In this document: piece by piece, positions 1 to 45,009 of the stretch
How positions within the stretch are numbered: position 1 is the stretch's first letter
Layout of the letters: every line of letters starts with the position of its first letter
Assembly: GCA_016301865.1 (NCBI GenBank)
Contig: JAEDOP010000001.1
Coordinates: 1 to 45,009, forward strand
DNA from: Alphaproteobacteria bacterium
Lineage (GTDB): Bacteria > Pseudomonadota > Alphaproteobacteria > Rs-D84
Reading direction: 5' to 3'
Length of the DNA stretch: 45,009 nucleotides
Position numbers and translations under genes: made by a program
The notes under the pieces: model-generated
What the model was told of the DNA's origin: nothing
The model's database searches: none
The model's input: the letters and a program-made list of their open reading frames with translations, nothing else

Positions 1-1
1 T

Positions 2-346
2 AGTTGCAACAACAACACCTTCGGTAATGGTTGCGGTTCCAACACCTTCGGGAATCAATACGAGAGAAACATCTTCGGAAAAAATTGCTCCTCCAACACC
101 TTCGGTAATATTTGCGGTTCCAACACCTTCGGGGATAATTGCAGCGACAACATCTTCGGTAATAGTTGCAAAAACAACACCTTTGGGCATAATATCCAGT
201 ACAACATCTTCGGTAATAATTGCGACAACAACACCTTCGGTAATAATTGCGATTCCAACACCTTCGGTAATAATTGCGCTTCCAACACCTTCGGTAATAG
301 TTGCAGTTACAATACCATCGGGAATGATTGCAATTACATTAAATTC
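2..346 (+). repeat. 27-nt (9-aa) coding tandem repeat array, 5' window copy
   Basis: Consecutive units of the form aac-acc-ttc-ggt-aat-nnn-tgc-nnn-nnn, in frame with the fibre ORF. Confidence 0.85.
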
Positions 347-613
347 GCATCTTCATCGTCTGCCACAACAAAGTACGACTATTATATACACAACCACTTT
401 GGGGACGGATGCCAATTCATACTTTTCAAAGGTGAGGGGGCGTCATCTCCATCCGCTCAAGTTCAAAACTACAAATTTGCTCAAGGACTGCAAAGAACGT
501 CAAATACATATCTCACAATTGACGGAGTGCGGAGCCGAGCCTATGAGACCAAGGTAGCGAAAAATTCAAGTGGCGAATTGAAGATGTACTGTGAGGTAGA
601 TTTGATACAATAG
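2..613 (+). CDS. Tail fibre / receptor-binding protein, C-terminal part (5'-partial; same repeat gene type as 43621..45009)
   Basis: Frame 2 is open from the window edge to TAG at 611-613. It encodes about 12 tandem 9-aa repeats (N-x-F-G-x-x-C-x-x) followed by a non-repeat C-terminus of about 90 aa. Nt 1-171 are identical to 44700-44870. ORF-track entry 27..557 is a wrong-frame reading of the repeat. Confidence 0.7.
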   Translation, partial: SCNNNTFGNGCGSNTFGNQYERNIFGKNCSSNTFGNICGSNTFGDNCSDNIFGNSCKNNTFGHNIQYNIFGNNCDNNTFGNNCDSNTFGNNCASNTFGNSCSYNTIGNDCNYIKFASSSSATTKYDYYIHNHFGDGCQFILFKGEGASSPSAQVQNYKFAQGLQRTSNTYLTIDGVRSRAYETKVAKNSSGELKMYCEVDLIQ

Positions 614-666: not shown

Positions 667-1029
667 ATGATGGAAACAAACATTTGGGTCGAACTTGCAA
701 AATTGGCCGTCGCTTTCCTTGGTGGCGGCGGCCTTTGGGCTTGGATTAAGGCCCGAGAAGATAAGAGAAAAACGCCGTATGATATGTTCCGGGACCTGTT
801 GGCCGAACAAAAAAAGTTTTATGAAGAACGGAACGCGGATTACGAACGGGAAAAGTTGGATTCGGCGGAAAAATCGTCGGTCATTATGCAATCGCATTTT
901 TGCAAATACAAATACACAGACCCAAACGTAGTTTGTCCTATTGATTTGGCAAACGATGAACGTTTGAAAAAGCGTTGCGAACGTATCGGTTATTGCCAAT
1001 TGGCACACGATAAAGAGAATGAACAATGA
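667..1029 (+). CDS. Small membrane protein in the lysis cassette (holin candidate)
   Basis: N-terminal hydrophobic helix WVELAKLAVAFLGGGGLWAWI. The stop overlaps the amidase start (ATGA at 1026-1029). Confidence 0.45.
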   Translation: MMETNIWVELAKLAVAFLGGGGLWAWIKAREDKRKTPYDMFRDLLAEQKKFYEERNADYEREKLDSAEKSSVIMQSHFCKYKYTDPNVVCPIDLANDERLKKRCERIGYCQLAHDKENEQ

Positions 1030-1619
1030 TGAATCAAAAGTTAATACCGATTTTTGACAACGGACACGGCGACAATACGCCGGGCAAACGTTCCCCCCAA
1101 TTCGGAGAGAATTTGCCTATTTTATACGAATGGGAATTTAACCGCGATATTGTCAAGCGTATAGCGGCAATGTGTACGAATGTCCAGATAAAATACCGCG
1201 TGTTAGTCCCGGAAAATAACGATGTATCATTGCAAGCCCGTTGCGAACGTGCAAACCAGATATATAGCGAAACCGGGGGCAAATGTTTTTTATTTAGCAT
1301 ACACGCGAACGCCGGGGGCGGCACAGGTTGGGAGTGTTACACGACAAAGGGCGAAACAAAATCCGACCGAATAGCCGAAATTTTAGCAAACGAATGGCGG
1401 GCAGAGTTTGGCGACCAATGGAGAATCCGGGCGGATTATTCCGACGGGGACGCAGACAAAGAAAGCCAATTTTATATTTTGCAACATACAAAATGCCCGG
1501 CGGTATTGTCCGAAAATTTGTTTATGGATAATTATAAAGATTATCAATTTCTAATGACAGATGCGGGGCGTGAACGGATTGCAAAGGTACATTTTGAAAC
1601 AATACGACTGATTTTATGA
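1026..1619 (+). CDS. N-acetylmuramoyl-L-alanine amidase (Amidase_3-type endolysin)
   Basis: Motifs IFDNGHGDNTPGK, FSIHANAGGGTGWE and SENLFMDN match the zinc amidase_3 pattern. Confidence 0.8.
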   Translation: MMNQKLIPIFDNGHGDNTPGKRSPQFGENLPILYEWEFNRDIVKRIAAMCTNVQIKYRVLVPENNDVSLQARCERANQIYSETGGKCFLFSIHANAGGGTGWECYTTKGETKSDRIAEILANEWRAEFGDQWRIRADYSDGDADKESQFYILQHTKCPAVLSENLFMDNYKDYQFLMTDAGRERIAKVHFETIRLIL

Positions 1620-14341: not shown

Positions 14342-14435
14342 TTTGGTAATTAAAAATAAATACTTACCTTTGTATCCGGGTTGAGGTTACAACCCGACGG
14401 CCCGGGCCGGTTCCCGGATATAAAACTAATGAGTT
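14342..14435 (+). promoter_or_regulatory. Promoter plus structured-leader cassette D
   Basis: TTTG at 14342-14345, 19-nt spacer, TAccTTTG at 14365-14372. Hairpin 1 is GGGTTG/CAACCC (14378-14395). Hairpin 2 is CCGGG-CCGGTT-CCCGG (14402-14417). The ATG is at 14436. Confidence 0.6.
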
Positions 14436-14674: not shown

Positions 14675-14748
14675 TGCGTCGTAGTGTAACGGTAACACCC
14701 AAGTTTTTGGCACTTGTATTCCCCGTTCGAATCGGGGCGGCGCAACCA
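14675..14748 (+). tRNA. tRNA-Gln (anticodon TTG), CCA encoded
   Basis: Hand-folded cloverleaf. Acceptor TGCGTCG/CGGCGCA (one G-U pair), D arm GTGT/ACAC, anticodon stem CAAGT/ACTTG with loop TT-TTG-GC, T arm CCCCG-TTCGAAT-CGGGG, discriminator A, then CCA. Confidence 0.8.
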
Positions 14749-14756: not shown

Positions 14757-14838
14757 ACCCGTGTGGCGAAATGGTAGCCGCGCAACACTCAAAATATTGT
14801 ACCGTAATGGTGTGCCGGTTCGAATCCGGCCACGGGTA
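14757..14838 (+). tRNA. tRNA-Leu (anticodon CAA), long variable arm
   Basis: Acceptor ACCCGTG/CACGGGT, D region TGGCGAAATGGTAGCCGCG (Leu-type), anticodon loop CT-CAA-AA, variable arm ACC-GTAAT-GGT, T arm GCCGG-TTCGAAT-CCGGC. Confidence 0.8.
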
Positions 14839-14848
14839 CGAAAACGGA

Positions 14849-24143: not shown

Positions 24144-24482
24144 ATGGCAAAATATATACATCGCAATATTTGGAATTGGGGCCGAAAAGATACCATCGTA
24201 ATTGCGGACGGTCGCGCATTGTGTCAATTGTCCGTTGAGGATGAAAACCCGGCCGTTGCGTATTTGTCCGATGTTATCGTGTTGGAATCGGCCCGTGGTT
24301 GTGGCCTTGGTAATGACTTGTTGGAAGCGGCAAAGGAACACGCCCGGGAAATGGGCGCAAAAATGTTGTGTTTGTGGGCGGACCCGGAACAATGGGTGGT
24401 TGAGTGGTACAAACGGCACGGATTCAAACAACAATGCGTGTATGATGATGGGATGGTTGGTTTAACGTTTGATTTGGAATAA
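24144..24482 (+). CDS. GNAT-family N-acetyltransferase (112 aa)
   Basis: VIVLESARGCGLGNDLLEAAKEHAREMGAKML...YKRHGF contains the acetyl-CoA binding motif A (R/Q-x-x-G-x-G/A). Confidence 0.7.
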   Translation: MAKYIHRNIWNWGRKDTIVIADGRALCQLSVEDENPAVAYLSDVIVLESARGCGLGNDLLEAAKEHAREMGAKMLCLWADPEQWVVEWYKRHGFKQQCVYDDGMVGLTFDLE

Positions 24483-26998
24483 TGGACGTTGATACGATGC
24501 AAATAACCCGGATGTTGACCGAACACCCGGAAATGTTCTTGCAAGAGGGCGCACGGCGAAACCTGTTGTGGTACGCGCAATATATGGACCCCAACTTTCA
24601 GCCAACGCCGTTCCATCGGGCGTATTATGCCGTATTGGACCGGTTCGCCAAACGCCAAATCAAAAAACTAATCATACAGGCCCCGCCGCAACACGGAAAA
24701 GCATTGCGGGAAGATACGCCGGTATTGACGACAAGCGGATGGAAAAGACACGCGGATTTGCGGCCCGGAGATTATGTATTTGGCGAAGATGGGAAACCGC
24801 GCCGTGTTAAATGGAATAGCGGCGTTTATAAATGCGAATCGCAACGTGTGTGTTTCGCCGATGGCTTTTCGTTGATTGCGGCCCGTCAACACGAATGGGT
24901 CGTGTATGCGGACCACGACGACCATAAAGGCCGTATCCGGGAAATCGTCGAAACTCAAAATTTGTTTTCAAGACGGAACCGGCGCAATCCATATATCCCG
25001 GCCAATGCAATTATTGATATGCCGAAGCGTGATTTGCCTATTTCGCCGTATCTGTTGGGTCTTTGGTTGGGCGACGGGAATAGTTTTGACAAATGGATAA
25101 GTTGCGGGGCGGAAGATATTGAACACTTGCGGCCATTTGCGGTTCAAATCAAACAGGACAAAACGGCATATCGTGTACATTTGTGCGGATTGGAAACGAA
25201 AGATTTGCGCCGCATTAGTGTATTGTTCAACAAACATATCCCCGTCGAATATTTGTTGGCAGATGTTGAAAGTAGGCGCGAATTATTACGTGGATTGATG
25301 GATACGGATGGATGCGTCAATACACGGGGAACGTGCGAATTTTGCCAGAAAGACGGCCAATTAGCAAACGATGTTTACGTGTTGTTGCGGACATTGGGTT
25401 ATAAGCCAACGCGACACACATACATTGCGCGTCTATATGGAAAAGATTGTGGCAATAAGGTTCGAATAACGTTTAATCCGGACCGGGACGATAAAATCTT
25501 TGACATTCAGCGAAAACAACAAAGATTGGAAAATAAATCGTGTTTGGACCGGGACGATAAAAAACGATTCTTTATTGAATCTGTTAACGAATACGGAAAT
25601 GCGGACGTTAATTGTATTGAGGTTGACGGCGGAATATATCTTGCGGGATATGAACTTGTACCAACGCATAATTCCCAAGGGTCAAGCCGGTTTCTTCCAT
25701 CCGATATGTTGGGCCATTTCCCGGATTTGAAGATATGTATTTGTTCGTATGCGGCGACCATTGCAAAGGATTTCAACCGGGACGTTCAACGTTTGATTGA
25801 TTCGGATAAATACCGGGCCATATTCCCAGATACGCAATTGAACGGGTCGAACGTTGTTACAGTTGCCAATAATTACTTGCGAAATTCGGACGTTTTCGAA
25901 ATCGTGAATCATACCGGTTCGTTGCGTGTCGTTGGTCGTGGTGGTTCGCTTACATCCAAGACCGTTGACGTAATGATTTACGATGATTTGTATAAGGATT
26001 CGACGGAAGCGAATAGCCCGATAATCCGGACGGCCGCGTGGGATTGGTTCACGAAAGTTGCACAAACCCGTTTGCACAATGATTCGCAACAATTGGTTGT
26101 GTTTACCCGATGGAACCCCGACGACATTATTGGCAAAATCATTGAATCGGAAAAGGTTATTTTTGTAGAAAAATGGTCCGATTTAGACAACATCCCGTCC
26201 GGGGCGTGGGTATTGGTCAACTTTGAAGCAATCAAGACCGGCGAACCGACGGAAATTGACAACAGGGAACCCGGGCAACCGTTATGGCCGCAACGTCATT
26301 CGTTGGAACGCCTGTTGCAACAAAAACAATTGGACCCGTTGGGTTTCCAATGCCTGTACCAAGGTAATCCGGGCGATGCAACCGCATATCTTTACCAACC
26401 GTTCAAAACGTGGGTCGAAAAATCGGAATGGGGCCAATATATCCGTTCGGGTTGTTACGTTGATGTTGCAGACGAGGGCGATGATTTCTTATTTGCCGCA
26501 ACTTATGACATTTACCGTTCCGAAAATCAAATTTGGAATGAAGCCAAACACCGGATGGAACCGTTGTTGTTTGTGCTGATAACGGACATTGAATTTACCG
26601 ACGAGCCAACCGACGTTACGACCGTGACAGTACCCCGGATGATTAACAACAATGGCGTACAAAAAGCGTGGATTGAATCGAACAACGGCGGGTCCCAATT
26701 CGAAAAGACCGTGAAAAAAAAGGTTCGGGCGTTGACGGTCCCGTTTTACCAAAGCGAAAACAAGGAATCCCGGATTGTAACGAATGCGCCGTTTGTAAAT
26801 CAATATATCATTATGCCGTTCGGGTGGGAAACCCGGTACAAGAAATTCCACGACCATATCGTTGGGTTCTTACGCAAGTTCGATGCGAACACCCACGACG
26901 ACGACGCGGACGGATTGACCGGAATATACGAAAAGGAAATTGCCGACGGAAATACGAAACCATATAACGCCGCATCACGTGGCGTTCGCGTCCATTAA
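24482..26998 (+). CDS. terL: Terminase large subunit, interrupted by an intein (838-aa precursor, about 514 aa after splicing)
   Basis: QAPPQHGK|[intein]|SQGSS restores a GKS Walker A. Walker B is VDVMIYDDLYKD. A C-terminal nuclease-type region follows. Confidence 0.85.
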   Translation: MDVDTMQITRMLTEHPEMFLQEGARRNLLWYAQYMDPNFQPTPFHRAYYAVLDRFAKRQIKKLIIQAPPQHGKALREDTPVLTTSGWKRHADLRPGDYVFGEDGKPRRVKWNSGVYKCESQRVCFADGFSLIAARQHEWVVYADHDDHKGRIREIVETQNLFSRRNRRNPYIPANAIIDMPKRDLPISPYLLGLWLGDGNSFDKWISCGAEDIEHLRPFAVQIKQDKTAYRVHLCGLETKDLRRISVLFNKHIPVEYLLADVESRRELLRGLMDTDGCVNTRGTCEFCQKDGQLANDVYVLLRTLGYKPTRHTYIARLYGKDCGNKVRITFNPDRDDKIFDIQRKQQRLENKSCLDRDDKKRFFIESVNEYGNADVNCIEVDGGIYLAGYELVPTHNSQGSSRFLPSDMLGHFPDLKICICSYAATIAKDFNRDVQRLIDSDKYRAIFPDTQLNGSNVVTVANNYLRNSDVFEIVNHTGSLRVVGRGGSLTSKTVDVMIYDDLYKDSTEANSPIIRTAAWDWFTKVAQTRLHNDSQQLVVFTRWNPDDIIGKIIESEKVIFVEKWSDLDNIPSGAWVLVNFEAIKTGEPTEIDNREPGQPLWPQRHSLERLLQQKQLDPLGFQCLYQGNPGDATAYLYQPFKTWVEKSEWGQYIRSGCYVDVADEGDDFLFAATYDIYRSENQIWNEAKHRMEPLLFVLITDIEFTDEPTDVTTVTVPRMINNNGVQKAWIESNNGGSQFEKTVKKKVRALTVPFYQSENKESRIVTNAPFVNQYIIMPFGWETRYKKFHDHIVGFLRKFDANTHDDDADGLTGIYEKEIADGNTKPYNAASRGVRVH
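24701..25672 (+). mobile_element. Intein (324 aa) with a LAGLIDADG homing endonuclease domain, inserted in the terL P-loop
   Basis: Starts ALREDTPVLT (Ala1) and ends VPTHN followed by +1 Ser. Block B is GFSLIAARQHEW. Block F is VNCIEVDGG. LAGLIDADG motifs are LLGLWLGDGN and LLRGLMDTDGC. The endonuclease core is AT-richer than the exteins. Confidence 0.8.
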
Positions 26999-27814: not shown

Positions 27815-28008
27815 TGAACGCCAAGACAACCACGGTAACGTTGGTTGCGAACGGCGTTACCCGGGAATTTGAATTTTCCCACGCGGAACGATTGTTAAGG
27901 ATGCCGAATAACGGCGGTTGGAAATTGCCAGAAAAAACGAAATTCGAATTTAGCGTGAACTATGGGTTACGACGTTGCCAAGATAAGGAAAAAAATAGCG
28001 GAAAATAA
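27814..28008 (+). CDS. Hypothetical protein (64 aa)
   Basis: The ATG overlaps the upstream stop (TAATG). Confidence 0.45.
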   Translation: MNAKTTTVTLVANGVTREFEFSHAERLLRMPNNGGWKLPEKTKFEFSVNYGLRRCQDKEKNSGK

Positions 28009-29704
28009 ACGTTCCGCCGTTTTGAGCCGTGCGCGATTGCATCAAATGCGTATCAAATTCCACACGGTCAAACGGGTTACGTCTTTCAATTCGCCGTACA
28101 TTTCTATTCCATTAACGCAATTTCTTGCAATGGTGGAAAATATCTTGCCGCACGATAAGTTTGTATTGTTCAAAGCACTTTTCCGTTATCCCATCAAAAC
28201 GAATGAGATAACGGAAATATGCTTTGCCAAGTTAAGCCGCATATTTGACGGCCGCAACCCCGCGTTCAATTATCAATTCGCAAATTCCGCCCAACGCGAT
28301 GATTGGGAACAATACAGGTTAAACAAGTTGAATGAACCCGAAGTATGGTCAACGAAAGGATGGGAATTTTTCAAATCCGAAATTAATTCCGTTTTAATCG
28401 TTGACGTGGCCCGGGAACAGACAACCGAATTGCCGGAACCGTATTTTTATTGGCTACCAATTGACGATGTAATTACATACAAAGCGAACCCGACAACGGG
28501 CCAAATGGATTATATCGTTTTCCGTCGCAAAGACGAAATCATTGTTTTGGACGATGAAACGTACCGGGTATGGGACGATGAAAAGCATACCGGCCAATTG
28601 GTCGGTTTGCCGAAAATTGAAGCCCCGCACGATTTGGGTTATTGCCCGGCCCGTTTCTTTTGGACCGAACCCATTTCGTTGGACGACCCGGACGTAAAGG
28701 CATCCCCGTTGTCCGCCGAATTGGAAAGTTTGGATTGGTTCGAATTTTTCCACATTTCCAAACGCCAATTGGACCTTATGGGTGCATATCCGATTTTGTC
28801 CGGGTACGAACAAAGTTGCGATTTCACGAACGCGGAAAATGGCGATTATTGCGACGGTGGGTTTTTGCGTGACAAACAAGGCCGTTACCGTCTTGATATG
28901 GCCGGATTACTGTTGCGTTGTCCGAAATGCGGGAACAAACGCATCGTCGGGGCCGGGTCCTTTGTGGAAATCCCTGTACCAAATGAAGCGGAAAACCAAC
29001 CAGATTTGCGCAACCCAGTACAGATATTGAACGTTGACCGCAACGCCCTTGATTACAATGTTGAGGAACAAAAGCGGTTGCGGGAAGAAATCATTACGGC
29101 CGTTGTCGGTCAAGAAGAAATCGTAACGAACCGCGACGCGTACAACGAACAACAGGTACAAGCGAATTTCGAAAACGTGACAACCGTTTTGAACCGGGTA
29201 AAAAAGGGTTTCGAAGCCGCCCAACAATGGGTTGACGAGACCGTTTGCCGGTTACGTTATGGACGGTATTTCATATCGGCAAAAATCAATTACGGCACGG
29301 AATTTTATTTGTATTCCCCGGATGAATTGCGGGCGCGTTATAAGGCCGCGAAGGAATCCGGCGCGTCCGAATCCGAATTGGATATGATGCAAAACCAAAT
29401 TCTGGAAACGGAATACAGGAACGACCCGGTACAATTACGCCGTATGAAGATATTGGCCGAACTTGAACCGTTCCGCCATCTTTCGCGGGTTGAGGTTAAC
29501 GAACTGTTTTCCAAAAATCTTGTATCAGAAACGGATTTGCGTATTAAATTGAACTTTCCTAATTTTGTACGCAGATTCGAACGCGAAAACACAAACATTT
29601 TGGATTTCGGTTCGGAAATTGACTACCAACGCAAGATTGAAACTATTATGGCCGAATTGCGGCGTTATGCCGATGAACAGAAACCGCAACCGGCGAATGT
29701 ATAA
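27962..29704 (+). CDS. Portal protein candidate (580 aa)
   Basis: Size and position (first large gene after terL, upstream of the scaffold and capsid genes). The start is uncertain; an alternative ATG lies at 28046. Contains a Cys4 cluster C..C...CPKC. Confidence 0.5.
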   Translation: MGYDVAKIRKKIAENKRSAVLSRARLHQMRIKFHTVKRVTSFNSPYISIPLTQFLAMVENILPHDKFVLFKALFRYPIKTNEITEICFAKLSRIFDGRNPAFNYQFANSAQRDDWEQYRLNKLNEPEVWSTKGWEFFKSEINSVLIVDVAREQTTELPEPYFYWLPIDDVITYKANPTTGQMDYIVFRRKDEIIVLDDETYRVWDDEKHTGQLVGLPKIEAPHDLGYCPARFFWTEPISLDDPDVKASPLSAELESLDWFEFFHISKRQLDLMGAYPILSGYEQSCDFTNAENGDYCDGGFLRDKQGRYRLDMAGLLLRCPKCGNKRIVGAGSFVEIPVPNEAENQPDLRNPVQILNVDRNALDYNVEEQKRLREEIITAVVGQEEIVTNRDAYNEQQVQANFENVTTVLNRVKKGFEAAQQWVDETVCRLRYGRYFISAKINYGTEFYLYSPDELRARYKAAKESGASESELDMMQNQILETEYRNDPVQLRRMKILAELEPFRHLSRVEVNELFSKNLVSETDLRIKLNFPNFVRRFERENTNILDFGSEIDYQRKIETIMAELRRYADEQKPQPANV

Positions 29705-36646: not shown

Positions 36647-39600
36647 ATGGACAACCCGAACCCGATTTATTACCGCGATTTAATTAAGCCGGATAATTCA
36701 ATTACCAATTTGATTACCCAATTGGATGAATTGATACAAAAGTACGAATCCGCTAAAAGCAAGATTCAAGGCGCGGCGGCGGAAGCGGCAAAGAGTATGA
36801 GCAATTTATCCGGGGCAACGGAAGAACAACGGCAACAAATTTCAATGTTAACGGCGGAATCCGACAAATTGGCCGCCGCATACAAGAAAAGCAACGACGC
36901 CGAAAGTGAAACGTACCGCCGCCGTCAACAGGTTATCGCGGCCGTCAAGGAACAACAACGGATTGACAAATTAGTTGTTGAATTGAACCATTCCAAAGCG
37001 GGTTCTTATAACAGGTTGTCGGCCCAATACCGTTTGAACAAAATTCGTCTTAACGAGATGTCGGCGGAAGAACGGAAAGGAACGGAAGCCGGGCGGCAAT
37101 TGGAAACTGAAACGCGGTTGATTTATGAGGAAATGAGCCGGTTACAACAAGCGACCGGCAAATATACGTTGGAAGTTGGCCATTATCAAAACGCATTAAA
37201 GGCGTTGCCGGGACCCATCAACCAAGTTGTTACGGGCTTTTCCAATATGCGTTCCCAATTGCACACCATCGGAACGTCAAATTTGCCGTTGGCCGCAAAG
37301 GCGATGCAAGGTTTTTCAACGGTTATGTTTGGAACAATCGGTATCATCCTTTCGTTTGTTCGTTACTTAACCGGAGCGGCGCAAACGATGCGTGAATTTG
37401 AGCAGGCCAACGCCAATTTGGCTACGATTTTGGGAACGTCCCGGGATGGGATGAAAGCGTTAACCGATTCGGCGTTGTCATTGGGCCGAATAACTGAATA
37501 CACGGCCCGGCAAGTTACCGAATTGCAAACCGAATTGGCAAAACTTGGTTTCGGCCAAGGTTCAATTATAGCGATGCAAAAACCCGTATTGGAATTTGCA
37601 ACGGCCGTTGGGGCGAATCTTGCCGACGCGGCGGCCGTGGCCGGTTCTACCTTGCGGGCGTTCAATCTTCGAAGCGCGGAAACGGAAGAAACATTGGCAA
37701 CGTTGGCCGTCGCAACAAACAAGTCGGCATTGTCATTCGACCGAATCCAAACATCCATCGGTACGGTTTTTCCTGTTGCAAATGCGTTCGGTTTGACGGT
37801 TAAAGATACGACCGCGTTGTTGGGCGCATTGGCAAACGCCGGGTTCGATGCGTCAAGCGCGGCAACGGCAGCCCGTAACATCATTTTGTATTTGGCTGAC
37901 GCGAACGGAAAGTTGGCAAAGGCGATGGGCGGACCGGCAAAGACGTTCGACGAAATCATTGATGGAATGATTGAGTTACGCAAGGCCGGAACGGATTTGA
38001 ACGAAGCGTTGGAATTGACCGACAAACGAAGCGTTGCAGCCTTTTCGGCCCTGTTGTCTGGTGCGGAATCCGCCCGGGAATTGCGGCAATCATTGGAAGA
38101 TGTTAACGGCGAATTGGAACGCATTTCGGAAGAACGTTTGAATACGGTTGAGGGTTCGACAAAGTTATTGCAATCAGCGTGGGAGGGTTTAACGTTGGCG
38201 TTCCAAAATTCCAATGGCGCAATCAAAGATACGATTGATTGGTTAACCCGTTTGGTACAGGCGACGCAACGAGCATTGTTCCCGCAATCCACGTTCATTT
38301 CGGAATCGGCCGATAAATACACGAAACAATTTCAAGAATTTTACGCCAAAAATGGCGCGGAAGCGGCAACGGCATTTATTGACAACTTTATGGCCGATTA
38401 CGAAAAGTTGGCAGAAAAGACGGGCCGCGAAGCCAAATACGGCGACGGCCTGTTGAATCGTTGGTTGGGCTTTGGCGACAAACAGGTTGCCGCAAAGGCG
38501 GCTGCCGGTTCATTGGAAGCGATACGGCAAGCCCGTGGCGTTGTCCTTTCCCAAATCGAAAACGATACCCGGGAAAGCGAACAACAGGCATTGAGGGCGG
38601 CCGAATTGGCCGAACAACAGGCGAACCAAAAACGGGAAAAATTAAGCAAAGAACAGAAAAAGGCGATTGAAGCGGCAAAGAAACAACGTATTGCCGACCG
38701 CCGGGCCGTTATCGAATCAATTGATTTGGAAATTGCCATAACGGAAGCCGGTACGGATAAGATGTTGCAATTGCGCCAAGATAGAATCGAAGCGCAACGG
38801 CAATTGGAATTGGAACAGAACAGGCAAAAGGCCGCGTCCGAACGCCAAGACGAAGCCGCCATTAACGCCAAATATAACAAACAACGGTTGGATGCCGTCA
38901 AGGCGTTTAAAACGGAAATTGCTAAATTGAACGTTCAACGGTTACAGGCGGAACAACAGGCAATCCAATTGGAAATTGCGATAACGGAAGATGGGACCGA
39001 CCGGATGTTGGAATTGCGGTTGGCCAACATCGAAAAGCAACGCGAAATCGAAATTGCGCAAAACCGACAAAAGGATGAAAAGGTACGCCAAGCGGAAACG
39101 GCCATTAATGCCAAATACGACGCGTTGAGTTTGAGGGAATCCGCCGATTTCAACAATAAGTTGGCGCAACGGGATTTGGCGGCCGCCCAAGATTTGGCCC
39201 AAGCGGAATTTGATTTGTTGAACCGAAACGAACACCAAAAAACGTTGTTCCGGTTGCAACAGGAAAAGGCCCGGTTGGAAGCCGTTTTGAAATTGAACGA
39301 AACGGCCACAAATAAAATGACGGCCGACGAAATCAAGGCCATAAAAACGACCATTTCCGGGATTGAAAAGGAATCGAAGAAATTGGGTTATAACAATCTT
39401 TACGAATTGTTGGGTCTCGGGTTGAATTCCGACCAACAAAACGCATTGAACACGGCGATTGATTCCATTAAAGATTCCGTCGGTTCATTGGTTGATTCTT
39501 GGAACCAAGCGGCGGAAGCGGCCGTTAATGCGGCGAACGCCCAAGTTGACGCCGCGCAACGAGCGTTGGACGCAGAAATTGAAGCCCGGAACGCCGGTTA

Positions 39601-40279
39601 TGCCAATAAGGTCGAAACCGCGCAAAAGGACTTGGAATTGGCCAAGAATAACCAAGAAAAGGCGTTAAAGGAACAACAGAAAGCCCAAAAGGCACAATTG
39701 GCCGTCGATTCGATTACGCAAGCGTCAAGTTTAATAACCGCATCGGCAAATATTTGGAAATCGTTGTCCGCTATTCCTATTGTTGGTCCGGGATTGGCCG
39801 CCGCCGCGTTGGTTACAATGTGGGCTTCGTTTGCGGCTGCCAAGATTAAGGCCGTACAGGTATCGAAGCAACAAACAGAACAATACGGCGACGGTACGGT
39901 TGAGTTGTTACAGGGCGGAAGCCACGCAAGCGGCCACGACATTGATTTGGGAACGAAGAAAGACGGAACCCAGCGACGTGCAGAGGGCGGCGAATTTTTC
40001 GCCGTCATTAACAAGCGTAATTCGCGCCGATTCCGTGATGTTATCCCGGACGTTATCAATTCGTTTAACGATGGCACATTTGCGGACCGTTACCAACGCG
40101 CAAACGCCGCAATGGCCGGTTATGCCGTCGGATTAGTTGGCGGCGGTACCACGGACGTTTCCGGGCTTGAAAAGGACGTTGCCGCAATCCGTCAACAGGG
40201 CGACGAAACCCGTTATGTTGATGGGCAAGGAAACACGATTATTCGGTACAAGAATTTAACCCGTAAAATCAAATCGTAA
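36647..40279 (+). CDS. Tail tape measure protein
   Basis: 1210 aa and helical. The core region FEQANANLATILGTSRDGMKALTDSALSLGRITEYTARQVTELQTELAKLGF... is typical of tape measure proteins. It contains an internal 81-aa tandem duplication. Confidence 0.85.
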   Translation: MDNPNPIYYRDLIKPDNSITNLITQLDELIQKYESAKSKIQGAAAEAAKSMSNLSGATEEQRQQISMLTAESDKLAAAYKKSNDAESETYRRRQQVIAAVKEQQRIDKLVVELNHSKAGSYNRLSAQYRLNKIRLNEMSAEERKGTEAGRQLETETRLIYEEMSRLQQATGKYTLEVGHYQNALKALPGPINQVVTGFSNMRSQLHTIGTSNLPLAAKAMQGFSTVMFGTIGIILSFVRYLTGAAQTMREFEQANANLATILGTSRDGMKALTDSALSLGRITEYTARQVTELQTELAKLGFGQGSIIAMQKPVLEFATAVGANLADAAAVAGSTLRAFNLRSAETEETLATLAVATNKSALSFDRIQTSIGTVFPVANAFGLTVKDTTALLGALANAGFDASSAATAARNIILYLADANGKLAKAMGGPAKTFDEIIDGMIELRKAGTDLNEALELTDKRSVAAFSALLSGAESARELRQSLEDVNGELERISEERLNTVEGSTKLLQSAWEGLTLAFQNSNGAIKDTIDWLTRLVQATQRALFPQSTFISESADKYTKQFQEFYAKNGAEAATAFIDNFMADYEKLAEKTGREAKYGDGLLNRWLGFGDKQVAAKAAAGSLEAIRQARGVVLSQIENDTRESEQQALRAAELAEQQANQKREKLSKEQKKAIEAAKKQRIADRRAVIESIDLEIAITEAGTDKMLQLRQDRIEAQRQLELEQNRQKAASERQDEAAINAKYNKQRLDAVKAFKTEIAKLNVQRLQAEQQAIQLEIAITEDGTDRMLELRLANIEKQREIEIAQNRQKDEKVRQAETAINAKYDALSLRESADFNNKLAQRDLAAAQDLAQAEFDLLNRNEHQKTLFRLQQEKARLEAVLKLNETATNKMTADEIKAIKTTISGIEKESKKLGYNNLYELLGLGLNSDQQNALNTAIDSIKDSVGSLVDSWNQAAEAAVNAANAQVDAAQRALDAEIEARNAGYANKVETAQKDLELAKNNQEKALKEQQKAQKAQLAVDSITQASSLITASANIWKSLSAIPIVGPGLAAAALVTMWASFAAAKIKAVQVSKQQTEQYGDGTVELLQGGSHASGHDIDLGTKKDGTQRRAEGGEFFAVINKRNSRRFRDVIPDVINSFNDGTFADRYQRANAAMAGYAVGLVGGGTTDVSGLEKDVAAIRQQGDETRYVDGQGNTIIRYKNLTRKIKS
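38720..39205 (+). repeat. 243-nt (81-aa) tandem duplication inside the tape measure gene
   Basis: I(D/Q)LEIAITE(A/D)GTD(K/R)ML(Q/E)LR...NRQK...AINAKY starts at 38720 and again at 38963. Confidence 0.7.
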
Positions 40280-42759
40280 TGAATCCAATATACAAATTTC
40301 AATTGTCCGCCGATTCGGCAACGCAACGGGCGTTTCCGATTTATAAGGATGATTTGGCAAAGGATTTTGAAAAGGAATCCGGCGAAGAATTTTTCCGGGC
40401 CAAGTTGTCCGGAAATTTGACGTTTGAAAGCGACGATTATACGTTTATCGTTTCCAAAGCGTTTGACACGCAATTTGCATTAGAAATCTTTATATCATAC
40501 AATGCCGGTCAATCGTGGACATCATATTGGCGCGGGACCTTTTGGAAAACAGATTGCGACTTTGACGACGACGCAATGACGGTTTCCGTTAAACCAACCG
40601 TTTGGGACCAATACAACGATGTTTTGGCCGGGATGGATAAGGAATACAACCTTATCGAATTAGCCCCGGAAATCGCACCCGTAAAGGCCGATAAACGGCC
40701 AATGGTACAAGTTTATGTCCCGGGCCAATCCGTAATCGGTTGTTTCCTTTCCGGTATGTGGTGGGAACAGGAAGCCGAACCGGAAAGCGACAAAACGAAA
40801 TTGGTTAATGATTTCCATTTTTCGTTGAATAAGGTAATGACGGTTGCGGATGTTTCCGGCACGATGTCGCCACAATTGCCAACCGCGTTTACAAAGGAAT
40901 ATTCCGGGGATGATAGGTTTAACCCACAAACGACAGGAACAACAGAATTTACCGCATCTGGTTATAAATTGGTATATCTTTATGACACGGGTTCTGGTTA
41001 TTCTGTTTATAGTTGGACCGTTGTTCGGGTTTCCGATAATACTGCATTATGGCAATATGTAATGGGCAATCAATTCCCGCCGTCAAATTTCACGCAAATA
41101 ACATTAACCCCGATTTCCGGAAGCGGGGCGACGGGGAATGTAACATTAAATTTTCGTGATATACCCGTGTATTCCCGTTTCGTATGCGATACACCAACAA
41201 TCGTTATTGGCGGGTCAACGCTGAATACATACGAAATCCCGGCCGATGATATTGTGGAAAACAACCGCAATTATCATTACGTTATCGGTTATTATTTCCC
41301 GGAAACAATCATATTTTCAACCGCATTAGTATCAACCCCGACCCAATGGGGATTATATCAACCGGGCCAATACTATTTGAATCCGGCCGACATTTCAACG
41401 GCAGGATTGGGCGAAGCGTTCCCCGTTGCGCGTAATGCGTGGGGCCTTGTATCAATTTGGTATGCCTTTTCGTTGATTGATTGGGTTGTGGAATCATCGG
41501 CCCGGCAACCGTTCACGATTAGCCACGCATACCCGATTTCGTCGGTTATATCGGTATTGTTGGCCAAGATTGCGCCCGGCATAACCCACGCGGCAACCAC
41601 GGATTATTCCCAATTCCTTTATGGAACAAATCTTATTGGAATAACACAAACTTTGTTGATAACCCCGAAATCAAATTTGATTACGGCGGGTTATGACCAA
41701 CCGGCACAAAAGGCCCCGATTACGTTAAAGGATGTTTTGGATATGTTGCGCGATTGTTTCCGGTGTTATTGGTTTATAGACGAACAAAACCGTTTCCGGG
41801 TTGAACATATCCAATATTTCCGCAATGGCGGTTCGTATTCCGCTTCGCCTGTTGTGGGTATTGACTTGACAACACAAAAGGTTCCGCGCAATGGGAAAGA
41901 ATGGGCGTTTGCCCGGAACCAATATAAATTCGACAAACCAGAAATGGCGGCGCGTTATCAATTTGGTTGGATGGATGATGTTACACAATTGTTTGAGGGT
42001 TATCCGATTGATATTATTTCGAAATATGTGAATCCGGACAATATCGAACAAATTGATGTGTCAAAATTTACATCCGATATTGATTATATTTTGTTGAACC
42101 CGGGCGACATTTCAAAGGATGGTTTTGTTTTGATGTCTGGGCAAAGCGAAAATTATTTGTCCGAGACAATAGAAAAAAGTGGTACCCCGTCAAACGGAAT
42201 AGCGTTTGATGAATTTAGTTTATCCCAATTTAAGGGAAAGATGGTTACGGTACGGGTAAAAAGTACGTTGGCCGGGGTAAAACTTGCGCAATTTGACGGG
42301 GCCTTTGAATATGAAGATATTGGCATACTTGAACAGGCAAACACGGAATATTCATTTACTTTTGAAGCAAAGTATTTGATTGTTGGAATGTATGACGCAT
42401 CGGCAAATTTTGTTGGGTCATTGATTGCCGTTTATGCTGATATGTATAAATTGCCATATCTTAATTGTATTATTGATTCGAACGACCACTATTTGCAAAA
42501 CGCGTATGTTGCATTTTGCATATTACAACAGTATTACGCATTTGATATGCCTGCTTATCATTATGAAATTAATGGCAAACAGATGTACGCGTATGGCATC
42601 AAGAAATTAAAGAACCAAACGTTAAGATTTCCGGTTTTGAATGACCCGGATTTGGTACAATTAGTAAAAACGAATTTGGGGAATGGTACGATTGAAAAAT
42701 TGTCCGTAAATTTGTCAAGTCGGAACGCAAATGCAACATTAAAGTATGATACCGAATAA
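40279..42759 (+). CDS. Tail tip / baseplate structural protein (826 aa; distal-tail position)
   Basis: The start overlaps the tape measure stop (TAATG). Assigned by size and position. Confidence 0.5.
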   Translation: MNPIYKFQLSADSATQRAFPIYKDDLAKDFEKESGEEFFRAKLSGNLTFESDDYTFIVSKAFDTQFALEIFISYNAGQSWTSYWRGTFWKTDCDFDDDAMTVSVKPTVWDQYNDVLAGMDKEYNLIELAPEIAPVKADKRPMVQVYVPGQSVIGCFLSGMWWEQEAEPESDKTKLVNDFHFSLNKVMTVADVSGTMSPQLPTAFTKEYSGDDRFNPQTTGTTEFTASGYKLVYLYDTGSGYSVYSWTVVRVSDNTALWQYVMGNQFPPSNFTQITLTPISGSGATGNVTLNFRDIPVYSRFVCDTPTIVIGGSTLNTYEIPADDIVENNRNYHYVIGYYFPETIIFSTALVSTPTQWGLYQPGQYYLNPADISTAGLGEAFPVARNAWGLVSIWYAFSLIDWVVESSARQPFTISHAYPISSVISVLLAKIAPGITHAATTDYSQFLYGTNLIGITQTLLITPKSNLITAGYDQPAQKAPITLKDVLDMLRDCFRCYWFIDEQNRFRVEHIQYFRNGGSYSASPVVGIDLTTQKVPRNGKEWAFARNQYKFDKPEMAARYQFGWMDDVTQLFEGYPIDIISKYVNPDNIEQIDVSKFTSDIDYILLNPGDISKDGFVLMSGQSENYLSETIEKSGTPSNGIAFDEFSLSQFKGKMVTVRVKSTLAGVKLAQFDGAFEYEDIGILEQANTEYSFTFEAKYLIVGMYDASANFVGSLIAVYADMYKLPYLNCIIDSNDHYLQNAYVAFCILQQYYAFDMPAYHYEINGKQMYAYGIKKLKNQTLRFPVLNDPDLVQLVKTNLGNGTIEKLSVNLSSRNANATLKYDTE

Positions 42760-43609
42760 CAATTTATCCGTATTGCCTTGGTACACATCCATTGAGCAAC
42801 AGAATGCCCGGAAATGGTGGGTTTACAACAGGGTTTACCCGTTGTTTACCCCGGCAATGTTTATGTTGCCGTTCCAAATCTTGCGCACCCATTGGGACGG
42901 AACAACCATTTCGTCGTTCCGGGTTTATACCAAAACGGGCGTGTTGGTTGGGGACTTTACTCAAGCAATATTGGACGCCGGAATTACCATTAAACCGTTT
43001 ACATCGTTTGGGTATGATGTAATCGTGTTTGGCGGCCAAACGCCCGTGTTCACGCAATTCGCAAACGGCCAATATTACGCAACGATTTCGGACGGACTTC
43101 AAACGTGGTATTCCGAAATGTTTACGGTCGTAAATGATATTGAACCGTATTTGAAAATAGTTTGGTGGGATAATGAGGATTTCACGATGGACGCCGGAAC
43201 GATTGTGTACACAAACCCCGCGTTCAAGAACGTTTTGTATCTTCAAAGTGATTTGGCAAAACCTGAATATCAGTTTGAGGAAGAAGGCGAAACCCGGGAT
43301 GGTTACTTTTTCCCGACAAAACAGATTTCGGAAAAAAGATACCGTTTCAATTTCCTTGCGTCCGAATACCTGTTGGATGTTATGCGTTTTATCCGGATGG
43401 CCGATTTCGCGGAAATTGAATACCACGGCCAACGTTATAGTTTGGACACGTTCTTAATTACCCCGGAATGGGAAGATAACGGCGACGTTGCTGCGGTTGA
43501 AGCGGTTTTTGATACGGCAACAGTTGCGAAAAAAATCGGTTTGGGTTACATAAAAGCCCAACGCGGCAATTTCAACGACGATTTCAATAACGATTATAAT
43601 AACCAATAA
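42746..43609 (+). CDS. Tail tip / baseplate structural protein (287 aa)
   Basis: Overlaps the upstream gene and lies just upstream of the fibre gene. Confidence 0.5.
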   Translation: MIPNNNLSVLPWYTSIEQQNARKWWVYNRVYPLFTPAMFMLPFQILRTHWDGTTISSFRVYTKTGVLVGDFTQAILDAGITIKPFTSFGYDVIVFGGQTPVFTQFANGQYYATISDGLQTWYSEMFTVVNDIEPYLKIVWWDNEDFTMDAGTIVYTNPAFKNVLYLQSDLAKPEYQFEEEGETRDGYFFPTKQISEKRYRFNFLASEYLLDVMRFIRMADFAEIEYHGQRYSLDTFLITPEWEDNGDVAAVEAVFDTATVAKKIGLGYIKAQRGNFNDDFNNDYNNQ

Positions 43610-43620: not shown

Positions 43621-45009
43621 ATGGCAAATTATGAGACATTAAAGACGGCGATACAAAGTGTTGTTAAAACAAATGGCAACAACGAAATAACGGGCGCATT
43701 GCTTCAGCAAGCGTTGTTGGCAATGATAAATTCTTTGGGGTCCGGTTATCAGCTTGTCGGTGTGGCAACGCCGACAACAAATCCGGGCACTCCAGATGCC
43801 AAGGTATTTTATATAGCCAACGGCAAAGGAAGTTATGTCAACTTTAGTGGTCTTGAGGTAACGGAGAATGACGGATTAGTAATCTTCACATACGATAGCA
43901 AGTGGGTTAAGAATAATGTTGCTATTCCTACCAAGGAAGGAGGAACCGTAGAGGTATTGGCAGAGACAATGATAAATACTACATATTCGCAATTACGGAA
44001 TATGAGAAACAGTGGTACCCTTGTTCCCGGTATGCAATATCGTATTACGGACTATGCTTGCACCACAACCCAAGAAAATACTCAATCAGCAGGTCATCCA
44101 TTTGACATCATAGTAACTGCCGATAGCAAGAACACATTGAACGAGGTAGCAAGAGCCATTCAGCACGAAGGGGACACCTATTTCGCTGATTGTGACCTTT
44201 CCGCTTGGAAGATATGGTATTGCCTTGACAATGATGCTACAAAATTCGCTTGGGCAGATAGTACCAATGGCAAAGGTGTCATATATAGGATGATTGATGA
44301 ATGGAACAATGATGTGCCGTATGATTTCAAAAACATTCAGTTCGCAAGGGATTTGGCGGTTATCTCTCATAATAGCGCATTGACCGGGACTATCTATTGC
44401 TATACCTTTAGCATGTTCCTTGATGGCTTCAGTATGAATGCTACTGCAAGCGATGAAAGTGTTATAATAAAGCAACTTATTGCGAGTGTGGGATACGCAT
44501 TTTTTGGAAATAATAAAATAGAATCATATAGTTTCGGCGTATGTAGGCTTAATGATATAATATTCTTCACGGATAGTAAGAGTAAAATAGTCGGACATTT
44601 CTCCAACATCTTCGGAAGAAATTGCTCCTCCAATACCTTCGGTAATATTTGCGGTTCCAACACCTTCGGGGATAATTGCAGCGACAACATCTTCGGTAAT
44701 AGTTGCAACAACAACACCTTCGGTAATGGTTGCGGTTCCAACACCTTCGGGAATCAATACGAGAGAAACATCTTCGGAAAAAATTGCTCCTCCAACACCT
44801 TCGGTAATATTTGCGGTTCCAACACCTTCGGGGATAATTGCAGCGACAACATCTTCGGTAATAGTTGCAACAACAACACCTTCGGTAATGGTTGCGGTTC
44901 CAACACCTTCGGGAATAATTGCAGCGACAACATCTTCGGTAATAATTGCAGCAACAACACCTTCGGGGATAATTGCAGCGACAACATCTTCGGTAATAGT
45001 TGCAAAAAC
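43621..45009 (+). CDS. Tail fibre / receptor-binding protein, N-terminal part (3'-partial, runs off the window)
   Basis: Hand translation is open for 463 codons: MANYETLKTAIQSVVKTNGNNEITGALLQQALLAMINSLG... then a low-GC central domain, then 9-aa repeats from about 44602. It is absent from the ORF track because no stop codon is reached. Confidence 0.75.
   Translation, partial: MANYETLKTAIQSVVKTNGNNEITGALLQQALLAMINSLGSGYQLVGVATPTTNPGTPDAKVFYIANGKGSYVNFSGLEVTENDGLVIFTYDSKWVKNNVAIPTKEGGTVEVLAETMINTTYSQLRNMRNSGTLVPGMQYRITDYACTTTQENTQSAGHPFDIIVTADSKNTLNEVARAIQHEGDTYFADCDLSAWKIWYCLDNDATKFAWADSTNGKGVIYRMIDEWNNDVPYDFKNIQFARDLAVISHNSALTGTIYCYTFSMFLDGFSMNATASDESVIIKQLIASVGYAFFGNNKIESYSFGVCRLNDIIFFTDSKSKIVGHFSNIFGRNCSSNTFGNICGSNTFGDNCSDNIFGNSCNNNTFGNGCGSNTFGNQYERNIFGKNCSSNTFGNICGSNTFGDNCSDNIFGNSCNNNTFGNGCGSNTFGNNCSDNIFGNNCSNNTFGDNCSDNIFGNSCKN
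44602..45009 (+). repeat. 27-nt (9-aa) coding tandem repeats organised in a 162-nt higher-order repeat
   Basis: About 15 units N-x-F-G-x-x-C-x-x. The 162-nt super-units start at 44605 and 44767, and again at window position 68. Confidence 0.85.

What the first reader, a model, noticed from the sequence alone, without database searches (positions are those of the whole stretch)
44602..45009. Tail fibre built from a cysteine-containing nonapeptide repeat (N-x-F-G-x-x-C-x-x), at least 27 copies, in near-identical 162-nt higher-order units
About 15 units are visible at the 3' end and about 12 at the 5' end of the window. Each 9-residue unit keeps Asn, Phe/Ile, Gly and one Cys at fixed positions, for example NTFGNICGS / NTFGDNCSD / NIFGNSCNN / NTFGNGCGS. 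This periodicity suggests a beta-solenoid with stacked Asn and Cys ladders. It does not match the repeat types I know (hexapeptide, pentapeptide, 14-residue YadA-head, collagen). At the DNA level six units form a 162-nt super-repeat that recurs with 100% identity over 171 nt. That implies very recent unequal recombination and offers a ready mechanism for changing fibre length and tip spacing.
Basis: partly seen in the sequence, partly recalled or inferred. Interest (0 to 1): 0.6.

Follow-up and report, generated by a model that had tools for sequence, protein, structure and literature searches.

The report
Nine-residue-repeat phage receptor-binding fibre
The repeat is real and forms the rod of the host-recognition tail protein of a ~45 kb Bacteroidota phage. 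The protein belongs to a very large family that no domain or structure library describes, but the copy number and the "171-nt perfect repeat" are blurred because the contig breaks inside the repeat.

Summary
Both window ends lie in one gene (43621-45009, continued at 2-613). It sits where receptor-binding tail proteins sit: after the tape measure and two distal-tail genes, before a holin-like ORF and the endolysin.

**Architecture:** a 106-residue virion anchor, a conserved head domain, a rod of N-[T/I]-F-G-x-x-C-x-x units, and a conserved cap.

**Repeat:** the 15 + 12 visible units are real. However, nt 1-171 repeat 44700-44870 and the last 55 nt repeat 121-175, so "at least 27" double-counts. 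In-frame closures give 16 or 21 units.

**Higher-order repeat:** a genuine 120-nt exact repeat at offset 162 lies inside the 3' array.

**Structure:** AlphaFold2 folds the window's own rod and cap as a confident beta-solenoid (pLDDT 86.6). Family-wide statistics show a two-unit, 18-residue period. The nearest folds are left-handed beta-helices, only loosely (TM 0.38 or less).

**Known families:** no Pfam, NCBIfam or PDB match at or above any threshold. The family has about 1,870 clusters at 50% identity.

**Variation:** positions 6, 8 and 9 are hypervariable. Arrays range from 4 to 43 units, even between proteins with identical flanks.

This scan met the same module before on other DNA. Ordinary in role, undescribed in fold.

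The parts
43621..45009 (+). 5' part of the receptor-binding fibre gene (463 codons, open at the contig end)
   Evidence: ORF list. Homologues cover it from end to end.
43621..43938 (+). N-terminal virion-anchor domain (residues 1-106)
   Evidence: 58% identical to the first 105 residues of the otherwise unrelated 1061-aa protein at the same position in relative L003. 50-63% identical to the N-termini of Alistipes, Parabacteroides and Bacteroides phage proteins. Matches phrog_36068 over residues 4-101.
43963..44520 (+). Conserved head domain (about residues 115-300; motifs LVPGxQYRITDYxCTTTQ, AGHxFDIIVTAD, WKIWYCLDND, GKGVIYRMIDEWNNDxPYDFKNI). The boundaries are approximate.
   Evidence: Mean pairwise identity 70% among 26 homologues. 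pLDDT about 90 in model 1. Only a sub-threshold Pfam DUF7850 match. Shared with the Clostridium phage phiCT453A tail fibre.
44524..44604 (+). Three degenerate lead-in units (SYSFGVCRL NDIIFFTDS KSKIVGHFS)
   Evidence: In register with the array.
44605..45009 (+). 15 nonapeptide units N-[T/I]-F-G-x-x-C-x-x (3' array)
44635..44754 (+). 120-nt exact copy 1 of the 162-nt higher-order repeat (copy 2 is 44797-44916)
44797..44916 (+). 120-nt exact copy 2 of the higher-order repeat
1..171 (+). Contig-start sequence identical to 44700-44870 (end redundancy, or a further copy)
121..175 (+). 55 nt identical to the contig's last 55 nt (44955-45009). This is the point of in-frame circular closure.
2..613 (+). 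3' part of the same gene: part-unit 2-13, 12 units 14-337, cap domain 338-610, stop 611-613
   Evidence: AlphaFold2 model of this piece has pLDDT 86.6.
338..610 (+). Conserved C-terminal cap (IKFASSSSATTKY..NHFGDGC..QVQNYxFAQG..YETKVAKNSxGELKxYCExDLI). It contains one more degenerate unit.
   Evidence: 72% mean pairwise identity. pLDDT 86-97.
42746..43609 (+). Upstream 287-aa tail protein (counterpart of PDS1 gp59 'putative tail fiber')
   Evidence: phrog_35885 at 8.5e-88. Synteny.
40279..42759 (+). 826-aa distal-tail protein following the tape measure
   Evidence: phrog_19383. Synteny with PDS1 gp58.
36647..40279 (+). Tail length tape measure protein
   Evidence: phrog_20660 at 5.5e-186.
667..1029 (+). 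120-aa ORF in the holin position. It has no family hit.
   Evidence: Position before the endolysin. PDS1 gp61, a holin, follows gp60.
1026..1619 (+). Endolysin (amidase type)
   Evidence: phrog_435 at 1.9e-33.

Best explanation
The array is the rod of the receptor-binding tail protein of a ~45 kb siphovirus-type Bacteroidota phage. The phage genome was assembled as one contig that breaks inside the repeat.

The protein has four parts: a lineage-specific N-terminal anchor, which plugs into the tail tip, and then a portable head-rod-cap module.

In the rod, two 9-residue units make one 18-residue coil of a single-chain beta-solenoid.
- Asn1, Phe3, Gly4 and Cys7 are the scaffold. I infer that Phe and Cys are packed in the core, and that Asn and Gly sit at turns.
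- Positions 6, 8 and 9, and less so 2 and 5, are hypervariable and rich in Tyr, Ser, Asn, Asp and Gly. I infer that they are exposed and form a ladder-like binding face for a repetitive host surface polymer such as capsule or O-antigen.

The units are similar at the DNA level. In-register recombination or slippage therefore adds, removes and reshuffles coils, which changes the size and chemistry of the binding face.

**Shown here:** the gene's position, the anchor sharing, the family, the solenoid prediction, the 18-residue period, the hypervariable positions, and the spread of copy number.

**Inferred:** which residues are buried, the ligand, the oligomeric state, and that the recombination is real rather than an assembly effect.
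For: **Context**
- Terminase, portal, tape measure, two tail genes, this gene, a holin-like ORF, then endolysin.
- The same order is found in Parabacteroides phage PDS1.
- The portal is 66-68% identical to those of Bacteroides, Alistipes and Parabacteroides phages of about 45 kb.

**Module swapping**
- Relative L003 has an 87%-identical upstream gene. Its protein at this position keeps the 106-residue anchor (58% identity) but carries an unrelated 1061-aa body.
- None of the 80 closest IMG/VR relatives has the array.
- The head-plus-repeat part also occurs in the annotated tail fibre of Clostridium phage phiCT453A.
- The module also sits next to an endolysin and an integrase in a Bacteroidales genome.

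**Family size**
- More than 5,583 homologues at 90% clustering.
- 1,866 clusters at 50% identity.

**Fold**
- The window's own 203-residue rod plus cap gives pLDDT 86.6 and pTM 0.85, with an identical strand pattern in every unit.
- All 27 PDB matches at E <= 1e-3 are 18-residue-per-coil left-handed beta-helices.

**18-residue period**
- Departures from consensus at core positions correlate at even unit lags. For a non-Phe residue at position 3, the correlations at lags 1 to 4 are 0.04, 0.36, 0.10 and 0.26.
- None of 300 shuffles reached this. It was seen in two separate protein sets.

**Hypervariability**
- Pairwise identity is 0.85-0.96 at positions 1, 3, 4 and 7, against 0.14-0.28 at positions 6, 8 and 9.

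**Copy number**
- Arrays hold 4-43 units.
- Pairs whose flanks are 95-100% identical differ by clean in-register blocks: 11 vs 5, 7 vs 4, 17 vs 8 units.
Against: - No experiment, virion proteomics or solved structure exists for any member that I could find.
- The full-length homologue model was poor (pLDDT 61.9), and its weak matches were to right-handed helices. Handedness is therefore uncertain.
- Foldseek TM-scores to left-handed helices are low (0.2-0.38, rmsd about 10 A).
- The even-lag signal could partly reflect 54-nt duplication history rather than stacking.
- Copy-number differences between near-identical proteins come from short-read metagenome assemblies, which can collapse such repeats. 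Six of 58 genome loci end inside an array.
- The strongly conserved head domain could be the true ligand-binding or catalytic part.
- Monomer or trimer was not tested.
Confidence: 0.68

Rival explanations
1. The rod is a three-chain intertwined fibre shaft (a triple beta-helix, as in T4 gp5 or gp12), not a single-chain solenoid. The 9-residue unit would then be one step of each chain around a common axis.
For: - Tail fibres are usually trimers (general knowledge).
- Short helices precede the head domain in some homologues and link tandem modules. They could be trimeric necks.
- Cys or His ladders on a three-fold axis are known from the T4 gp37 tip (from memory).
Against: - A monomer prediction folds the rod confidently on its own (pLDDT 86.6, pTM 0.85). 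Intertwined shafts usually do not do this.
- The two-unit period has no obvious meaning in a three-fold intertwined helix.
- The matches are to single-chain solenoids.
Confidence: 0.12
2. The module is an enzymatic tailspike. The conserved head domain would be a depolymerase or deacetylase acting on host polysaccharide. The repeat rod would be only a spacer or stabiliser, and its variability would be neutral.
For: - The head is the most conserved part (70% identity, many invariant Asp, Glu and His).
- In relative L003 the same slot holds a large, different protein, which I suspect is tailspike-like. It has no Pfam hit.
Against: - There is no match to any enzyme family or solved enzyme.
- Variation in the rod is not neutral-looking. 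It is confined to three positions per unit with a Tyr/Ser/Asn/Asp bias, while the scaffold positions stay 85-96% conserved.
Confidence: 0.15
3. The higher-order repeat and the apparent copy-number variation are assembly artefacts. The true gene would have one fixed array, and exact long repeats, contig-end duplication and 'deletions' between homologues would all come from short-read graph mis-traversal.
For: - The contig ends are redundant.
- Six of 58 related loci stop inside arrays.
- The differences between near-identical proteins are exactly the kind that repeat collapse produces.
Against: - Array length ranges from 4 to 43 units across hundreds of divergent, fully flanked proteins from many assemblies. 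Collapse alone cannot explain that.
- The 27-nt periodicity and the protein family are independent of any one assembly.
Confidence: 0.2

Closest known systems
Tail fibre protein gp53 (AJA42543.1) of Clostridium phage phiCT453A
   Same: - A head-type domain (LVPGQGYLMTDY...) followed by 9-residue N-x-[FL]-G-x-x-C-like units.
- tblastn E 6e-16 over window residues 96-463.
- It is annotated as a tail fibre and lies after the baseplate genes and before holin and endolysin.
   Different: - Only 26.6% identical.
- Myovirus-type baseplate context, with a different (DUF3751) N-terminus.
- The units are much more degenerate and often lack Cys.
- The C-terminus is different.
- No functional or structural study was found.
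Left-handed parallel beta-helix of hexapeptide-repeat acyltransferases (NeuO 3JQY, OatWY 2WLE, GlmU, LpxA, LpxD)
   Same: - Best and only significant structural matches (E 5e-5 to 1e-3, 27 hits).
- The coil length is also 18 residues (18 per coil in LbH is established knowledge; here).
- The stretch F-G-x-x-C-x resembles one [LIV]-G-x-x-[STAV]-x hexad.
   Different: - TM-scores of only 0.2-0.38.
- No Hexapep Pfam hit.
- The coil is 2 x 9, with every 9-mer equivalent in the DSSP pattern, not 3 x 6.
- The core is Phe/Cys/Asn rather than aliphatic.
- No acyltransferase context.
RTX nonapeptide beta-roll (GGxGxDxUx)
   Same: A 9-residue unit with two units per 18-residue turn (established knowledge of RTX rolls).
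   Different: - No GGxGxD calcium-binding motif.
- No RTX Pfam hit.
- No beta-roll among the 50 PDB matches listed.
- One Cys per unit.
Right-handed beta-helix phage tailspikes (P22, HK620, phiAB6, CBA120)
   Same: The same role and genome position. They are single-chain solenoids that recognise surface polysaccharide. They gave weak matches to the full-length model.
   Different: - The matches are not significant (E >= 0.02).
- Tailspike coils have about 22-27 irregular residues and are not sequence repeats (general knowledge).
- No catalytic signature was found in the window's protein.
Cys-ladder beta-solenoids such as Tenebrio molitor antifreeze protein (recalled from memory, not tested)
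   Same: A short, regular coil with one or two Cys per coil lining the core.
   Different: That protein has a 12-residue coil with obligatory disulfides. Here Cys is replaceable by hydrophobic residues, and the phage lives in a reduced gut or rumen habitat.

Membership tests
Phage receptor-binding tail fibre / tailspike (functional class) | Encoded at the distal end of the tail module, after the tape measure and distal-tail genes and before lysis genes | tested here: met
   The order is identical in Parabacteroides phage PDS1.
Phage receptor-binding tail fibre / tailspike (functional class) | Conserved N-terminal anchor joined to an exchangeable distal part | tested here: met
   Residues 1-106 are shared with unrelated bodies in L003 and in Alistipes, Parabacteroides and Bacteroides phages.
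Phage receptor-binding tail fibre / tailspike (functional class) | Present in the virion and needed for adsorption | not testable with these tools
   No proteomic or genetic data were found.
Uncatalogued head-rod-cap nonapeptide module (phiCT453A gp53-like) | Head domain + N-x-F-G-x-x-C-x-x array + conserved cap, in that order | tested here: met
   The joined protein aligns end to end with homologues at 55-69% identity.
Hexapeptide-repeat left-handed beta-helix (Pfam Hexapep, PF00132) | [LIV]-[GAED]-x2-[STAV]-x hexapeptide periodicity recognised by the family model | tested here: not met
   No Hexapep hit at E <= 1 or among the 28 family members at E <= 0.1. The period is 9, not 6.
Hexapeptide-repeat left-handed beta-helix (Pfam Hexapep, PF00132) | Left-handed 18-residue triangular coil | tested here: inconclusive
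   An 18-residue period is supported, and the best Foldseek hits are LbH. But TM is at most 0.38, the model coordinates were not inspectable, and model 1 leaned towards right-handed folds.
RTX beta-roll | GGxGxDxUx calcium-binding nonapeptide | tested here: not met
   The unit consensus is N-[ST]-F-G-N-x-C-x-x. No RTX Pfam hit.
Pfam DUF7850 (head domain) | Score above the gathering threshold (27 bits) | tested here: not met
   13.4 bits for the window and 19.2 bits for P0032. Five of 28 members match weakly.
DGR-diversified receptor-binding protein | Template/variable repeat pair | tested here: not met
   The only long direct-repeat families in the window are the array itself, a 95-nt promoter element and a weak 46-nt family. 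A reverse transcriptase was not searched for specifically.

The most novel reading that the evidence does not exclude
The rod would be a distinct beta-solenoid class: two equivalent 9-residue half-turns per 18-residue coil, with a Phe/Cys/Asn core. Phages of several gut phyla would use it as a natural hypervariable display scaffold, and in-register recombination between units would reprogram specificity.

In addition, the contig's two ends may record two array lengths co-existing in one sampled population. The 5' end closes the circle with 16 units and the 3' end with 21. The difference is one 135-nt exchange between the 51-nt exact repeats at 44820-44870 and 44955-45005.
Probability: 0.3. Interest if true: 0.7.

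Novelty: new variant of a known kind. Interest (0 to 1): 0.5.

Why it matters
Host recognition is the least predictable part of gut and rumen phage genomes. This module is abundant: about 1,870 clusters at 50% identity, in phages or prophages found in Bacteroidales, Clostridia, Treponema, Mollicutes-like and Elusimicrobia assemblies. Yet it has no domain model, no solved structure and no paper that I could find.

A family model and one structure would let thousands of 'hypothetical' phage proteins be annotated as receptor-binding proteins. They would also locate the specificity-determining positions (6, 8 and 9 of each unit).

In Bacteroidales, capsule phase variation is reported as the main route to co-existence with phages, phiPDS1 included (bioRxiv 10.1101/2024.11.17.624012). 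A recombining repeat face is a plausible phage counter-move, but that link is my inference.

Practically, the repeat breaks short-read assemblies and is open in four of six reading frames. It therefore misleads contig circularisation, copy counts and gene calling.

Tried and rejected
**Searches that found nothing**
- Pfam, NCBIfam and PHROGs scans of both gene pieces gave no hit on the head, rod or cap that reached a family's curated threshold. The only clear hit was a PHROG of unknown function on the anchor, and the best hit on the head was a weak DUF7850 match.
- PDB sequence and profile searches gave nothing.
- Five literature searches (nonapeptide or nine-residue repeats, beta-solenoid receptor-binding proteins, left-handed beta-helix tail fibres, DUF7850, phiCT453A) gave nothing relevant.
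- The phiPDS1 paper says nothing about gp60.

**Readings I rejected**
- A 27-residue (three-unit) coil. The window's 81-nt sub-period and some three-unit deletions suggested it. I rejected it in favour of 18 residues, because core-position deviations peak at even lags in two protein sets.
- Obligatory disulfides or metal sites at Cys7. Single units replace Cys with Tyr, Ile, Phe or Leu, and the window has 19 Cys in 21 units.
- A DGR mechanism. There is no template/variable repeat pair.
- Comparing copy number in the closest phages failed. None of the 80 IMG/VR relatives found through the upstream gene carries this module.

**Limits of the tools**
- The full-length homologue model was too poor for fold assignment.
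- The BFVD search added only one hexapeptide-repeat phage protein.
Full report
**1. What the window is**

The window is a whole 45,009-bp contig (C86) of an 807-kb, 121-contig bin. It carries a complete-looking tailed-phage gene set:
- large terminase, 24482-26998
- portal, 27962-29704
- structural proteins
- tape measure, 36647-40279
- an 826-aa protein, 40279-42759
- a 287-aa tail protein, 42746-43609
- the gene in question, from 43621

The portal is 66-68% identical to those of Bacteroides, Alistipes and Parabacteroides siphophages of about 45 kb. All 80 portal matches are to Bacteroidota phages apart from one unnamed faecal phage and one Pseudanabaena phage.

Four copies of a Bacteroidota-type promoter element (TTTG ... 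TAnnTTTG) also point to a Bacteroidota host. Membership of the small bin is therefore probably a binning accident. That is my inference.

**2. One gene across both ends**

- The ORF from 43621 is still open at 45009. A reading frame is already open at nt 2 and stops at 611-613.
- Behind it lie a 120-aa ORF (667-1029) and an amidase-type endolysin (1026-1619).
- Parabacteroides phage PDS1 has exactly this order: tape measure, gp58, gp59 'putative tail fiber', gp60, holin.

So the two ends belong to one gene of a circular or permuted genome.

**3. The ends are redundant**

- Nt 1-171 equal 44700-44870. The last 55 nt equal 121-175. There is no simple prefix-equals-suffix overlap.
- The literal join gives a stop at once.
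- Two closures are in frame and free of stops:
  - 44870->172 gives 563 aa and 16 units;
  - 45009->176 gives 608 aa and 21 units.
- Nt 1-120 match 44835-44954 at only 72.5%. The contig is therefore a circle with a tail, not a clean circle.

Three readings remain:
- two co-existing alleles that differ by a 135-nt exchange between the 51-nt exact repeats at 44820-44870 and 44955-45005;
- one 21-unit gene plus a spurious lead-in;
- a longer array of at least 27 units.

The 55-nt overlap looks like a k = 55 graph signature, but the assembler is unknown to me.

**4. The repeat itself**

- The 3' array has 15 units (44605-45009). The 5' array has 12 units (14-337).
- Tandem Repeats Finder reports periods of 27, 81 and 162 nt.
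- Inside the contiguous 3' array, 44635-44754 equals 44797-44916 exactly (120 nt, offset 162). Other offsets reach at most 51 exact nt. A six-unit higher-order repeat therefore exists apart from the end problem, if that stretch is correctly assembled.

**5. Architecture and family**

The joined protein has:
- an anchor, residues 1-106;
- a head domain, about residues 115-300;
- three degenerate lead-in units;
- the array;
- a 91-residue cap that contains one more degenerate unit, NHFGDGCQF.

Family size and composition:
- A word-indexed search found more than 5,583 homologues, none of them carrying a source's name and only two with any precomputed Pfam domain.
- An exhaustive search with the window's own rod plus cap found 1,866 clusters at 50% identity, 364 of them below 1e-30. 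Lengths reach 2,482 aa.
- Many members carry two or more tandem head-rod-cap modules.
- No match reaches a curated threshold in Pfam or NCBIfam, and the PDB sequence and profile searches found nothing. The head gives only a sub-threshold DUF7850 signal.

**6. It is a swappable module**

- Among the 80 closest IMG/VR relatives found through the upstream gene, none has the array.
- In L003 the upstream protein is 87% identical. The gene at this position keeps the anchor (58% over 106 residues) and then continues as an unrelated 1061-aa protein.
- Cultured Alistipes, Parabacteroides and Bacteroides phages share only the anchor.
- Conversely, the head plus a degenerate array occurs in the annotated tail fibre of Clostridium phage phiCT453A, a myovirus-type prophage.
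- The module also occurs in assemblies labelled Bacteroidales, Clostridia, Treponema, Acholeplasmataceae/Mariniplasma, Elusimicrobiaceae and Bacilli, mostly from rumen and gut.
- In one 1.1-Mb Bacteroidales contig it sits between an endolysin and an integrase.

**7. Fold**

- A 519-aa complete homologue gave a poor model (pLDDT 61.9; rod 65-84). Its PDB matches, all to right-handed helices, were not significant.
- The window's own 203-residue rod plus cap, with a 94-row alignment, gave pLDDT 86.6 and pTM 0.85. Every unit showed the same pattern: a bridge at position 8 and a strand at positions 2-3.
- Its 27 PDB matches at E <= 1e-3 are all left-handed beta-helices of hexapeptide acyltransferases. 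TM-scores are only 0.2-0.38.
- The viral structure library added one hexapeptide-repeat phage protein.

So it is a solenoid whose local geometry resembles the LbH fold, but it is not a member by sequence.

**8. Coil length**

I asked whether a departure from consensus in one unit predicts one in later units.
- In 148 arrays from the first homologue set, a non-Phe residue at position 3 correlates 0.03, 0.25, 0.02 and 0.13 at lags 1-4.
- In 184 arrays from 142 different 50%-identity representatives, the values are 0.04, 0.36, 0.10 and 0.26. Positions 4, 5, 7 and 8 (aromatic) show the same even-lag pattern. None of 300 within-array shuffles reached the observed statistic.

The structural unit is therefore two nonapeptides, 18 residues. 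This is the same arithmetic as the LbH coil and the RTX beta-roll. A contribution from the history of two-unit duplications cannot be excluded.

**9. Scaffold versus surface**

- Over 2,456 units, the frequencies are Asn1 97%, Ser/Thr2 87%, Phe3 89%, Gly4 88% and Cys7 88%. The commonest replacements for Cys are Phe, Tyr and Leu.
- Positions 6, 8 and 9 are dominated by Tyr, Ser, Asn, Asp and Gly.
- Between homologues, identity is 0.85-0.96 at positions 1, 3, 4 and 7, against 0.14-0.28 at positions 6, 8 and 9. The head is 0.70 and the cap 0.72.

This is the pattern of a conserved frame displaying variable residues. I infer a binding face for a repetitive surface polymer.

**10. Copy number**

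- Arrays run from 4 to 43 units, with a median of 11.
- Proteins with 95-100% identical flanks differ by clean in-register blocks: P0045 vs P0084, 11 vs 5 units; P0096 vs P0103, 7 vs 4; P0035 vs P0048, 17 vs 8.
- The caveat is short-read collapse. Six of 58 genome loci end inside an array.
- With about 4.8 A per coil (general solenoid geometry), 21 units span about 5 nm. The effect of gaining or losing units is better described as a change in the area of the binding face than as a change in fibre length.

**11. Earlier notes of this scan**

- Earlier follow-ups on other genomes reached matching descriptions: an uncatalogued head-rod-cap nonapeptide module with phiCT453A gp53 as the closest known protein, and a hypervariable nine-residue-repeat fibre split across contig ends.
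- A first-stage note on this window described the end structure.
- I re-derived each point here.

**12. Verdict**

This is a real and statistically overwhelming repeat. Its role is ordinary: a phage receptor-binding protein. The repeat fold family is undescribed. The specific claims of at least 27 copies and a 171-nt fresh duplication are not established.

Noticed in passing
window 2436-2530, 4621-4715, 5672-5766, 14323-14417 (+): Four copies of a ~95-nt element. Each has a Bacteroidota-type promoter (TTTG ... TAnnTTTG) followed by two conserved GC-rich hairpins (GGGTTGAGG..AACCC and CCGGGCCGGTTCCCGG). It may be a shared 5' leader or regulatory RNA of early or middle operons. No Rfam family matches it at gathering score.
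   Followed up: partly
window 14675-14748 and 14757-14839 (+): Two phage-encoded tRNAs, Gln(TTG) and Leu(CAA). They lie just downstream of the fourth promoter/hairpin element.
   Followed up: no
window 44605-45009, both strands: The repeat DNA has no stop codon in four of six frames, and only one stop in a fifth. This produces several long spurious ORFs, for example 44524-45009 on the minus strand. They could mislead gene callers.
   Followed up: yes
whole window / bin G000: The contig is binned with an 807-kb, 121-contig genome rated 87.8% complete. Its portal, its anchor domain and its promoters all point to a Bacteroidales phage. This is probably a binning artefact.
   Followed up: partly
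L003 4879-8064: The closest relative carries, behind the same 106-residue anchor, an unrelated 1061-aa protein with no Pfam match. This is another uncharacterised receptor-binding body at the same slot.
   Followed up: partly
window 24482-26998: The large-terminase ORF is 838 aa. The terminase matches lie mostly in residues 400-824. The N-terminal ~400 residues give other terminase hits and weak primase and helicase-loader hits. It may be a fusion or a mis-set start.
   Followed up: no
homologue P0035 (453 aa), units 9-10: One unit has 8 instead of 9 residues (NSFGNDCS|NIFRNDCRF), which shifts the register mid-array. The near-identical P0048 lacks the whole distal half. This is either a tolerated bulge or an assembly or frameshift scar.
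   Followed up: no
homologues P0137, P0144, P0151 (2,046-2,482 aa): Some family members are very long and hit the rod-plus-cap query in several separate stretches, so they carry several rod/cap-like regions along one chain. Two-module proteins of about 1,000 aa are common.
   Followed up: no
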